A stretch of DNA of 63,915 nucleotides, filler included, from Thermoplasmatota archaeon (GTDB lineage: Archaea > Thermoplasmatota > E2 > JACPAO01 > JAHFTW01), in NCBI GenBank assembly GCA_041623215.1. It is 4 parts of 4 records of this genome, joined end to end, with 100 filler letters (N's around TTAATTAATTAA, not from the genome) between each part and the next. Parts side by side here need not be neighbours in the genome. Positions count along the whole stretch, not along the records: positions 17,904 to 35,222 come from JBFJXH010000030.1; 3 more parts are not named here. One strand, 5' to 3'. This document shows, one piece after another, positions 18,001 through 21,000 of this stretch. Numbering within the stretch: position 1 is the first letter of the stretch; every line of letters starts with the position of its first letter. The position numbers were made by a program.

Positions 18001-21000
18001 TTGCTGGCGTCGGCCACTACAACCATGCGCTTGCTTGCCGCAGCCACAATTTTCTCGCGCGTTAGCGCCCCGCCGCCGCCCTTGATGAGGCGCAGATGGG
18101 GGTCGAATTCGTCAGCGCCGTCAATGGTGACATCAACGACGGGGTGGGCATCGAGATCGGTGAGCGGGATGCCGCCTTCGGCGGCCAACTTGGCGCTTGC
18201 TTCACTGGTGGGAATGCCGACGATGTCGAGTCCCTCCTCACGCACGCGGCGTGCTAACTCCACGATGGTATGATGCACGGTTGAGCCCGTTCCTAGGCCA
18301 ACAACCATGCCTGGCTTCACGTCGCCGGCTGCAGCGACGCCTGCGTCCCGCTTGAGCGCGTCAAGGTCCACGCTGGGTCGAGGCACCGCTCGGTGTTAAG
18401 GTCGGCGACGGGCCCCGCAGCAGGTATTCCAAGAGAAACGCTGCCAAACCGTTATACCGGTCCCTTCGTCGCCCGCCAACAGGAGCCGGGACCATGACTA
18501 GTGTGACCGTACAACGCAAGGGTAACCAACACCTGCAGAACTTCAAGACCGCCAGCCAAGGCCGCGTCGATGCGACGAAGGACATGACGGCCGAGGCCAT
18601 GCAGGCCAAGCTCGCCGAGGTGCTGCCTCACTTGAAGAGCAGCCACCGCTACGAGCGCACCGCCAACATCGATGGCATTCTCGTGCAATTGGTCACCAAC
18701 AGCCTCCACCAGTACGAGTTCTGGACCGACAACTGGCACGCCGCCACCGAGGCCGTCAAGCCCCACGGCCACCTGTACAGCATCAGCGGCGTCCCCGGCC
18801 ACGAGGCCCACGCCTACTACTGCCCCGACACCGACACGGCCCTGTTTGTCAACACGGAATACTACGGCCAATGCAAGAGCTGGGCGCTTGGCCTCGCCGC
18901 AGTCATCTTGGAACGCAAGTTCAACACCCATTCCATTCACGGTGCCGCCGCCGAAGTTGACGGCCGTGGCATTGTGCTCATTGCTCCCACTGGCACCGGC
19001 AAGACCACCCAAGTCAACCGCCTCATGCAACACCCCCGCGGCAAAGTCATCGGCGACGATTGGGTGTACATAGGCGTCCCGGAGCGCCTTGGCCCCGAAG
19101 ACAAGCTCACAGTGTACCAGCCCGAAGTGAGCCTGTACGTACGCACAGAGAATGCCGAAAACGAACCGTGGCTCATCCCTATTTTCGACAATTGCAAGGT
19201 CGAAAACGTGGTTGACGAGCCCGGCGCCTGCGAATCGCCCTCCTGCAAGGCGGGCAACTGCATGTTTGACCAAGGTTACTCGTACTGCTACTGGGGCTTC
19301 GGCAACAGCCGTGCCCTTCTGCCCCGCAACTGGATGAAGGGTCCCGAGCGCGTCAAGGATGAGACCAGCATTGACCTCATTGTCCTGCTATGCCGCGACG
19401 AGGATGCGCCCAGCATCCGCGAACTCGACGAGGATGGCCTCATCGAAGTCCTCCAAGAAGGAAAGACGATGATTCGACCGGGCGCTGGACCTCGTGAACT
19501 CTGGGGCACCTACAAGTCCGAACCGTGGTACAACCCGTACCTGTTGGCGCCTGACCACGCCCGCCAGGAAGCCTTCTTCCGCCAGGAGGCGCGCCGGGCA
19601 ACCTGTGTGCTCCTGAACACGGCCCACCAGAGCATTGAGGAGACCTACGAACTCATCCTCAAGTACGCCGGCGTCGACGCCTAGGCATCTGAAGGATTAG
19701 GCCCGGCCTAGGCAGGGCTGGCAGCGCAGGCGATTTGCGTAGCGTTTTGACCTGCGGCCAGCATCGTCAGCCGTGCGCCTCCTGGTTTTCAAGGATGGCA
19801 AGTGGACCCTGCGCTCCGACCTGTCGCGCGAGGCAGCGCGGGCGCTTGTCCTGAGTCCGACGCCAGTCTGGGTGCGCGGGGGCGGCTCCGTCGGCACAGG
19901 CCTAGACGACCTAGCCGAATGGTTGGATTTGCATCCGCTGGCCATTGAGGACTTGCGTAATCCGCGCCAACGCCCCAAGGTCGAAGACTATGCTGGCGTG
20001 ACCTTCATCGTGTTGAGGGTGCCGCGCGAAGACGACACCGGCCAATTGGTGTGGGCTCAGGCGGGCTTCTTCCTGGGATCAGGCTTCGTCGTGTCGGCCA
20101 GCGAATCGCCACTGGTTGAATTGGAACCCATCATGGAGCGCTTGCTGGCGGGCCGCATCTGCCAGGACGGTCGGCCCGACCGCCTCCTGTACCACCTGTT
20201 GGACGCCCTCGTGGATTCATACTTCCCCCTGCTCGATGGCATTGAAGACCGGCTCGAGGAGATTGATGACAAAGTGTTGGACCGGGCGGACCAGGCTACG
20301 TTGGGCACGATTCGCGACATCAAGCACGACCTGGCGCGGATTCGCCGCGTGGTTCCCCCCATGCGGGACGCCGTGCTGAGCCTGGAAAGAAACACCCATC
20401 CGAACGTGGGCGACGACTTGGCTGTGTATCTGCGGGACGTATCCGACCACGCCATCCGGCTCGCGGAACGTGTCGAGCACATGAAGGAGTTGGCCGTCAA
20501 TGCGCAAGACACGTGGAATGCCACCTTGGCCAATCAGCAAAACCAGGTCATGAAGCGTCTCACGGTGGTGGCGGCGCTGTTGTTGCTGCCGGGCCTCTTG
20601 GCGGGCTTGGGCGGCATGAATTTTGAGCGCGGGTTTCCGGGCTGGGGCTATTGGCAGGTGACAGCCAGCATCTTTGCCTTCATCGTGGTCGGCATCAGTG
20701 TGGCTGCGTGGCGCCGGTGGCTGTAGGGTTTCGGCGGCGCAAAGGAACTTGGGTCGCGCGTGCCACGGGCTCCCCCAGGGCTGACCCCAATGGCCTAATG
20801 GCGGTCCATTTTCGCTGGCTCCATGCACAGATTTGCCCCACTGGGTGCCCTGGCGCTCTTGCTGACCCTGTCGTTTGCGGGCTGCTTGGGCGATGATGAC
20901 GACGGTACCGTCGTGGAACCGCCGGAACCGCTCGGGTCCCACCGCCCCATCAACAGCCCGACGGCGGCAACCTACCACGTGGCGGCTTTGGATGGCACCA

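What a model noticed while it worked through the whole genome (the two positions that open the first line are those of the whole stretch)
18494..19684. Compact third kind of nucleotide-dependent PEP carboxykinase (396 aa) replacing ATP- and GTP-PEPCK
g00723 has no Pfam, NCBIfam or Swiss-Prot annotation, yet its model matches PEP carboxykinase, it keeps the PEPCK catalytic set, and its family never co-occurs with ATP- or GTP-PEPCK in the Thermoplasmatota genomes searched. It is predicted to be the PEP carboxykinase of these archaea, about 150 residues shorter than any solved one and with its own conserved cysteine cluster. If true this is a third family of nucleotide-dependent PEPCK that fills an unnoticed gluconeogenesis/anaplerosis gap in many uncultured archaea.
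Evidence so far: Model pLDDT 88.9; all listed Foldseek hits are PEPCKs, best E 4.5e-17, TM 0.68-0.73 by query, 13-20% identity. Invariant in 35 of 35 aligned homologs: R24, Y124, K128, H149, P-loop GTGK170, D188-D189, N271/R273, plus C246, C256, C265; these line up by motif with E. coli R65, Y207, K213, H232, K254, D268/269, R333 (numbering recalled). Same 121 phylum genomes: this family in 21, GTP-PEPCK (PF00821) in 20, ATP-PEPCK (PF01293) in 23, no genome in two lists. G000 has neither known PEPCK. 886 homologs, some labelled Nitrososphaerales and Methanomassiliicoccales. Codon-usage rank 78 of 1912.
(Added by a program. Inside this text positions count along the whole contig: they may not be those of the stretch shown here. 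"Call 12" and the like, gene names such as g00115 and contig names such as C1 are that model's own, and its searches are not shown. The text may have been shortened before it was handed on; [...] marks where a part breaks off. The agent that wrote the report below was given it as the finding of a first reader that could run no searches.)

Follow-up and report, generated by a model that had tools for sequence, protein, structure and literature searches.

The report
Compact archaeal PEPCK lacking Mn-binding lysine
This unnamed 396-residue archaeal protein is predicted to fold like a shrunken PEP carboxykinase and occupies the same chromosomal slot that holds the GTP-type enzyme in sister genomes, so it is likely a third, untested nucleotide-using family of this central metabolic enzyme, although the aligned position of a metal-binding lysine found in the studied enzymes is a serine.

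Summary
The gene is real (18494-19684, 396 aa). Its model (pLDDT 92.4) matches ATP-PEPCK best (Z 29.2), then GTP-PEPCK (22.6); HPr kinase matches only half (12.9). New support: in the host family, one slot beside rpiA holds this gene in 5 genomes or GTP-PEPCK in 8, never both. Two sister pairs have opposite states. None of 31 holders among 401 phylum genomes, and none of 50 further holders, has a known PEPCK, while most keep pyruvate kinase and PEP synthase/PPDK. Correction: the catalytic set is not complete. YYGQCKS aligns with E. coli YGGEMKK, so K128 = K212 and the Mn ligand K213 is Ser (121 of 121). The cysteine cluster is not invariant. Against: a distant subclade co-occurs with an intact ATP-type gene in 4 of 6 genomes, and PPDK plus malic enzyme leave no PEP gap. 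In a tree the family is sister to the ATP types. Verdict: likely an ATP-using PEPCK of a new deep family with a remodelled metal site (about 0.7); no assay exists. The scan noted short and disabled relatives on other DNA before, but no note on this intact form was returned.

The parts
18494..19684 (+). Compact PEPCK-fold gene, 396 aa (P0001)
18563..18565 (+). R24, matches E. coli R65 (substrate arginine) by motif; 118 of 121; absent from the short 315-aa relative
18860..18880 (+). YYGQCKS (123-129): Y123=Y207, K128=K212, S129 in place of Mn-ligand K213
18938..19060 (+). H149 (=H232), P-loop APTGTGKT (T166=S250, K170=K254), D188-D189 (=D268-D269), each 121 of 121
19229..19288 (+). Cys-rich loop C246-C265, likely a structural metal site (inferred); missing in some homologs
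19304..19312 (+). N271-S-R273 (= N331-T-R333), 121 of 121 for N and R
19472..19504 (+). IRPGAGPRELW, aligned to the E. coli lid region TAKLAGTERG; absent from the short relative
19616..19645 (+). N375-T376...S-I-E-E-T384, ATP-type motif (E. coli N440-T441...S-I-K-D-T455); no R449 equivalent
   Evidence: second half read by motif
18452..18485 (+). TATA-like TTATAC (18452-18457) and GGAG ribosome site (18482-18485) upstream of the ATG
   Evidence: read from sequence; function untested
17904..18386 (-). rpiA (ribose-5-phosphate isomerase), divergent; cut by the contig end and continued on C116; left marker of the slot
19773..23338 (+). corA, BNR-repeat lipoprotein (508 aa) and 330-aa lipoprotein; the last two are right-hand markers of the slot, also found downstream of GTP-PEPCK in relatives

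Best explanation
The protein is likely a nucleotide-dependent PEP carboxykinase, probably ATP-using, of an undescribed compact family, predicted to interconvert oxaloacetate + NTP and PEP + CO2 + NDP. Shown: both PEPCK domains are matched; R65, Y207, K212, H232, S250, K254, D268, D269, E282, N331 and R333 have equivalents; a lid-like loop is conserved; K288 is Arg; K213 is Ser. Inferred mechanism: Mg-ATP binds the P-loop and D188; a second divalent metal sits on H149 and D189, with S129 or a water it holds replacing the lysine, so the metal preference may differ from Mn; R24, Y123, K128 and R273 hold oxaloacetate; the IRPGAGP lid closes over the enolate so that it is phosphorylated, not protonated. 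ATP is inferred from the NTG...SIxxT motif and from the closer fold and tree position. In G000, which shows no PEP carboxylase, pyruvate carboxylase or pyruvate kinase match, it would be the direct link between oxaloacetate and PEP; its direction in vivo is open.
For: Fold: VIA Z 29.2, rmsd 2.8, 348 residues to T. cruzi ATP-PEPCK; GTP type Z 22.6; PPi type Z 15.0; HPr kinase Z 12.9 on residues 144-396 only. Foldseek rows shown to rank 35 are all ATP-PEPCK. Profile match to ATP types: prob 98.7, 320 columns. Same slot: in family f1, all 5 holders have the gene divergent from rpiA (G000 adjacent; G301 and G370 about 1.1-1.3 kb away; G310 and G343 after one lipoprotein gene, across contig breaks). 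7 of 8 GTP-PEPCK genomes have that gene there instead, 0-2 genes from rpiA; the eighth is at a contig break with the same flanking genes. Sister pairs G000/G346 (UFBoot 100) and G310/G247 (90) have opposite states; G310 and G247 share the same intervening lipoprotein. Exclusion: 0 of 31 holders have PF01293 or PF00821, against 210 of 370 non-holders; 0 of 50 further holders (the one weak hit is the gene itself). Specificity: pyruvate kinase in 37 of 48 holders tested, PPDK_N in 64 of 66 genomes. Internal control: the short relative lacks R65 and the lid and co-occurs with known PEPCKs in 5 of 64 genomes. Precedent: a 498-aa PF01293 subfamily has Met at K213 in 3 of 3 genomes read, where it is the only PEPCK-like hit.
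Against: K213 is listed among the defining ATP-PEPCK residues, and a KK pair among the PPi-type ones (PMC13147460, passage). Blocking the matching rat lysine K244 by acetylation cut activity to about 1% (PMC7948413, passages; the K244=K213 equivalence is recalled). The same Lys-Ser motif is kept by the short relative, which is unlikely to be a PEPCK. A distant subclade (414 aa, YYGAAKSAG) co-occurs with a 593-aa ATP-type gene with intact KK in 4 of 6 genomes, all from one close group. Six f1 genomes (89-94% complete) have neither gene, and 160 of 401 have none of the three kinds. Kin are not independent; within f1 the chance of no overlap is only 0.04. All holders seen are metagenome bins. No assay.
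Confidence: 0.7

Rival explanations
1. It works at the same node but with changed chemistry: losing the metal lysine leaves mainly oxaloacetate decarboxylase or pyruvate-kinase-like activity, enough to make GTP-PEPCK dispensable.
For: K213 is Ser. PEPCKs have decarboxylase side activity (PMC8100219, passage). G000 and all 18 other f1 genomes lack pyruvate kinase, and PPDK could supply PEP. This would also fit the slot swap.
Against: 37 of 48 holders keep pyruvate kinase. The whole nucleotide site and the lid are invariant or nearly so, which a plain decarboxylase would not need.
Confidence: 0.1
2. It is a small-molecule kinase for another carboxylate or sugar-acid substrate, like the probable role of its short relative; the exclusion pattern reflects shared ancestry.
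For: The Lys-Ser motif is shared with the short form. Subclade 2 co-occurs with an ATP-type gene (4 of 6) and lies beside glutamine synthetase. Short forms lie near homoserine dehydrogenase in 6 of 15 loci.
Against: It does not explain why the gene and GTP-PEPCK take turns in one slot in two sister pairs, nor why R24, R273, Y123 and the lid are kept only in the long form. No conserved partner gene recurs across lineages in 80 loci.
Confidence: 0.12
3. It is a non-catalytic or slow oxaloacetate/nucleotide sensor, like the disabled modules fused to aspartate aminotransferase or to ATP-PEPCK.
For: Such disabled fusions exist in the same superfamily (P0136, P0139, P0142, P0165, P0160).
Against: The fused modules have lost His, P-loop Lys or the Asp pair, and G006 has one beside a true ATP-PEPCK. 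The long form keeps these at 121 of 121 and has no PEPCK to regulate.
Confidence: 0.05
4. It is an HPr-kinase-like or ScmC/HprK-related protein or peptide kinase.
For: Weak hits TIGR00679 E 1.3e-3, TIGR04249 E 4.9e-3.
Against: Those hits cover only the His/P-loop stretch (139-193). The N-terminal PEPCK domain and lid would close the site. The recurring neighbours are housekeeping genes; a radical-SAM gene appears near 9 of 80 loci in one lineage only.
Confidence: 0.03

Closest known systems
ATP-dependent PEP carboxykinase (PckA, EC 4.1.1.49; PF01293; nearest model NF006821 PRK09344.1-3; PDB 1ii2, 1j3b, 6asn)
   Same: Two-domain fold (Z 29.2); equivalents of R65, Y207, K212, H232, S250, K254, D268, D269, E282, E311, N312, N331, R333, N440, T441; lid region; sister group in the tree.
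   Different: 396 vs about 500-640 aa in the ATP types read here; ends near T. cruzi residue 446; 15-18% identity; K213 is Ser, E210 is Gln, K288 is Arg, no R449; a Cys loop is added; 29 bits against a cut-off of 369.
GTP-dependent PEP carboxykinase (EC 4.1.1.32; PF00821)
   Same: Same fold (Z 22.6); takes the same genomic slot in sister genomes, which suggests the same job.
   Different: Profile match weaker (prob 86.7); FPS-CGKT loop and VNWF/VNYF motif are absent; 200-300 residues shorter; KK pair intact in GTP types.
PPi-dependent PEPCK (EC 4.1.1.38; PDB 8e1u)
   Same: Core fold (Z 15.0, 364 aligned).
   Different: 1126 residues; keeps the KK pair (PMC13147460 passage); reported as not found in archaea (PMC8100219, section 10).
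HPr kinase/phosphorylase (PF07475) and HprK-related cassette kinases (TIGR04249, TIGR04352, TIGR04355)
   Same: His-x(n)-P-loop-DD core; Z 12.9 over residues 144-396; no K213 equivalent (recalled).
   Different: No match to the N-terminal domain; hits far below cut-off; no conserved cassette context.

Membership tests
ATP-PEPCK (PF01293/COG1866) | Two-domain PEPCK fold over the whole chain | tested here: met
   (model range 9-396)
ATP-PEPCK (PF01293/COG1866) | R65, K212, H232, K254, D269, R333 (list in PMC13147460) | tested here: met
   R24 118/121; K128, H149, K170, D189, R273 121/121
ATP-PEPCK (PF01293/COG1866) | K213, the Mn ligand | tested here: not met
   S129 in 121/121; from sequence alignment, not from coordinates
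ATP-PEPCK (PF01293/COG1866) | K288 | tested here: not met
   R217 in 121/121, a conservative change
ATP-PEPCK (PF01293/COG1866) | Score above the curated cut-off | tested here: not met
   PF01293 no hit for P0001, 26 bits vs 26.5 for the best homolog; NF006821 28.9 vs 369
ATP-PEPCK (PF01293/COG1866) | Nested inside the ATP-type clade | tested here: inconclusive
   Sister to an ATP clade of support 90; 305 columns, saturation warning
ATP-PEPCK (PF01293/COG1866) | ATP-dependent oxaloacetate to PEP activity | not testable with these tools
   needs an assay
GTP-PEPCK (PF00821) | PF00821 match, FPS-CGKT loop, VNWF/VNYF motif | tested here: not met
PPi-PEPCK | About 1100 residues with KK-H-DD set | tested here: not met
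   396 aa, KS motif
HPr kinase / HprK-related cassette kinases | Family score above cut-off over the kinase domain | tested here: not met
   17-18 bits vs 33.3 and 240; ScmC 16.2 vs 125
HPr kinase / HprK-related cassette kinases | Conserved radical-SAM/peptide cassette context | tested here: inconclusive
   No such cassette among the clusters printed from 80 loci; only 12 neighbour types were scanned with Pfam, PqqD-size ORFs under 90 aa were not examined

The most novel reading that the evidence does not exclude
A third nucleotide-dependent PEPCK family, the smallest known, that catalyses the full reaction without the lysine thought to be required for the second metal, is the PEPCK of several uncultured archaeal lineages, and belongs to a Lys-Ser superfamily whose lid-less short members and disabled fusions trace a path between PEPCK and HPr-kinase-like enzymes.
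Probability: 0.55. Interest if true: 0.82.

Novelty: new variant of a known kind. Interest (0 to 1): 0.68.

Why it matters
PEPCK is described as three classes: ATP, GTP and PPi (PMC8100219, section 10). A 396-residue enzyme without the Mn-binding lysine would test directly what that lysine, the lid and the C-terminal 100 residues are needed for. It would correct metabolic reconstructions of soil and sediment Thermoplasmatota, non-ammonia-oxidising Nitrososphaerales and Bathyarchaeia bins, where the gene is mostly labelled hypothetical. It is also a clean case of same-slot displacement between very distant enzymes. The test is cheap: one small soluble protein and a standard coupled assay.

Tried and rejected
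PPi-PEPCK in G000: PF20300 was the wrong accession (prok_STING), so that search says nothing. A recalled PPi-type P-loop motif found no ORF among 18,656; weak evidence only. 'Fills a gap' was tested and rejected: PPDK_N in 64 of 66 genomes, malic enzyme in 5 of 5. Archaeal FBPase_3 was absent in 5 of 5; other FBPase types were not searched, so gluconeogenesis in G000 is not shown. Replacement of pyruvate kinase: rejected as a general role. Expression: no RNA holder was listed. The sigma-70 scan found nothing and does not cover archaeal promoters. Sequence search of solved chains gave only P-loop hits and one chance repeat hit. The first IQ-TREE run failed and fell back to FastTree; the rerun was limited to about 150 iterations, and supports were reread as unrooted splits. 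My early note that GTP-PEPCK is adjacent to rpiA in G247 was wrong; a lipoprotein gene lies between. Ten paper searches (listings only, except the papers cited) found no description of this family. Two papers on deep-branching Thermoplasmatota and Thaumarchaeota lineages (PMC9287336, PMC10640624) have no main-text mention of carboxykinase; their supplements were not read and may hold automatic labels. No complex was folded, since no binding is claimed.

Full report
Observation. The ORF at window 18494-19684 (+) gives a 396-residue protein. It is single copy on contig C30 of G000, has a TATA-like box and a GGAG site upstream (read), and is divergent from rpiA. No Pfam or NCBIfam family passes its cut-off. 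The best curated hit is the ATP-PEPCK subfamily NF006821, E 4.2e-7 over residues 112-376; HPr-kinase and ScmC models hit only the His/P-loop stretch. There are 886 homologs among 7,998 candidates scored; most named ones are 'hypothetical', two are auto-labelled ATP-dependent PEPCK.

Fold. A model from a 46-sequence alignment has pLDDT 92.4 and pTM 0.89. Foldseek rows shown to rank 35 are ATP-PEPCKs (best E 2.2e-19, TM by query 0.68-0.75, 15-18% identity); GTP types start at rank 36. Against 48,161 chains, VIA gives ATP-PEPCK Z 29.2 (rmsd 2.8, 348 aligned, chain range 27-446), GTP type 22.6, a Euglena complex I subunit 19.9, PPi type 15.0, and HPr kinase 12.9 on the second half only. The shortening is thus largely loss of the C-terminal tail plus internal trims.

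Active site, with a correction. I aligned the family profile to 11 ATP-type sequences headed by E. coli Pck taken from the K-12 record, and again in an 82-sequence alignment. YYGQCKS lies in register with E. coli YGGEMKK and with YYGEIKK of the nearest subfamily. So Y123=Y207, Q126=E210, K128=K212 and S129=K213. In 121 homologs S129 and K128 are both 121 of 121, as are H149, T166, K170, D188, D189, E211, R217 (for K288), N271 and R273; R24 is 118 of 121. A published check list for ATP-PEPCK names R65, K212, K213, H232, K254, D269, K288 and R333, and a KK pair for the PPi type (PMC13147460, one passage). In rat PEPCK, acetylating the Mn-binding K244 leaves about 1% activity (PMC7948413, passages; equivalence to K213 recalled). 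This is the main weakness of the PEPCK reading and also its most interesting feature. It is softened by a 498-aa PF01293 subfamily with Met at this position in 3 of 3 genomes read, each with no other PEPCK-like hit; that subfamily is itself untested. The cysteine loop is common, not invariant (C246 and C265 116 of 121; absent in P0070, P0127, P0130, P0138). The C-terminal NT(G)...SIxxT motif matches the ATP type; the role of these residues in adenine binding is recalled.

Distribution. In 401 genomes of the phylum, 95 match the profile. 31 hold the long form (one partial at a contig end, one in two pieces). 64 hold a short relative of about 315 aa (15 read by sequence); one of them also has a disabled copy fused to an aminotransferase. 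PF01293 matches 139 and PF00821 matches 71. None of the 31 is in either list, against 210 of 370 non-holders; 160 genomes have none of the three. A scan of one genome per species found 220 relatives; the 80 kept are titled Nitrososphaerales/Thaumarchaeota, Bathyarchaeia, Thermoplasmatota, and a few others, nearly all marked as bins. I searched 50 of those 80 genomes, leaving out those titled Thermoplasmata or Halobacteriales: 0 have GTP-PEPCK, and the single weak PF01293 hit is the gene itself. Their completeness is not given. The exclusion is specific: 37 of 48 holders have pyruvate kinase, and 64 of 66 genomes have PEP synthase or PPDK. The same result shows there is no strict PEP gap. G000 has PPDK_N and malic enzyme matches, and none for PEP carboxylase (either type), pyruvate carboxylase or pyruvate kinase; it is 88% complete.

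Same-slot displacement, the strongest new evidence. Of 19 genomes in family f1, 5 have this gene, 8 have GTP-PEPCK, 6 have neither, none has both. All 5 holders have it in the slot divergent from rpiA: adjacent in G000, about 1.1-1.3 kb away in G301 and G370, and after one lipoprotein gene in G310 (contigs overlap by 138 nt) and G343 (the lipoprotein spans two contigs). 7 of 8 GTP-PEPCK genes lie in that slot in the same orientation, 0-2 genes from rpiA; the eighth is at a contig break with the same flanking genes. In the six genomes with neither, the slot holds lipoproteins or other genes. A host tree from five neighbouring housekeeping proteins (20 genomes; G334 left out for lack of them) pairs G000 with G346 (100) and G310 with G247 (90); each pair has opposite states. 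Either repeated replacement or a tandem ancestor with reciprocal loss fits; both imply redundancy. The slot is a variable one, and the simple chance of no overlap within f1 is 0.04, so this is strong but not conclusive.

Counter-evidence. In 91 genomes of another class, 44 match PF01293 and 14 PF00821. Seven have a long form: one of this clade, with no known PEPCK, and six of a distant 414-aa subclade. Four of those six also carry a 593-aa ATP-type gene with R65, KK, His, P-loop and Asp pair intact (one partial); they are close kin, and in one the compact gene is in two pieces. So 'never co-occurs' holds for the query's clade only.

Family context. A profile search of 1.84 billion representatives gave 306 hits. 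They include long forms with inserts, the short form, disabled modules fused to aspartate aminotransferase, and one fused to a true ATP-PEPCK. The fusions tie the superfamily to oxaloacetate. The short form lacks R65 and the lid, co-occurs with known PEPCKs in 5 of 64 genomes, and is labelled variously HPr kinase, aldolase or PEPCK by sources. In a 39-taxon tree (305 columns, saturation warning) the Lys-Ser superfamily is one clade (100), sister to an ATP-type clade (90), with GTP types apart (100). Profile scores agree: 126 to ATP types, 54 to GTP types, 159 between ATP and GTP. It is therefore about as far from ATP-PEPCK as GTP-PEPCK is, but on the ATP side.

Verdict. It works most likely like a PEPCK (0.7) but fails strict membership of the ATP family at K213, K288 and the score cut-offs. 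I file it as a new variant of a known kind. Ten paper searches found no description (listed under Tried and rejected). Earlier notes of this scan cover the short and fused relatives; a look-up by this sequence returned nothing.

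Noticed in passing
L032-L046 (e.g. L046:5087-6037+); 64 of 401 genomes: Short 315-aa relative without R65 and lid, in 47 of 48 genomes of one family; near homoserine dehydrogenase in 6 of 15 loci and a LeuA/CimA-like gene in 4; sources label it HPr kinase, aldolase or PEPCK. 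Probably a kinase of another substrate.
   Followed up: partly
P0136, P0139, P0142, P0165; L047:12-1277+: Aspartate aminotransferase fused to a catalytically disabled module of this superfamily; G006 has it together with a true ATP-PEPCK.
   Followed up: partly
P0160 (899 aa): Disabled compact module fused in front of an intact ATP-PEPCK of subfamily NF006821.
   Followed up: partly
L216:877-2370+, L217, L218: 498-aa ATP-type subfamily with YYGELKMS, i.e. Met in place of the Mn-ligand lysine; the closest ATP type to this family by profile (E 4.9e-22).
   Followed up: partly
L087-L095, L101, L104; L096; L097-L098; L210-L214: Several further deep, weakly scoring ATP-type PEPCK-like subfamilies (550-640 aa) in archaea with intact KK; the ATP class is more diverse than its Pfam model shows.
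   Followed up: partly
L198-L203: 414-aa subclade sits divergent from glutamine synthetase and convergent with a PmbA/TldD pair.
   Followed up: no
P0163 (754 aa): A member of the family that appears to carry an intein (TIGR01445 hit).
   Followed up: no
G346:C209:830-3334: Full bacterial-type PEP carboxylase (PF00311, E 1e-269) in the same-genus genome that has GTP-PEPCK; not found in G000.
   Followed up: no
window 17904 and G000:C116: C116 overlaps the start of C30 by at least 120 nt, so truD-rpoL-csl4-HTH-rpiA continues into this locus.
   Followed up: yes
family f1 (19 genomes): No pyruvate kinase match in any of 19, and no archaeal FBPase_3 in 5 of 5 tested.
   Followed up: no
PDB 8j9h_E2: A Euglena complex I subunit matches the model at Z 19.9, another reuse of the PEPCK fold.
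   Followed up: no
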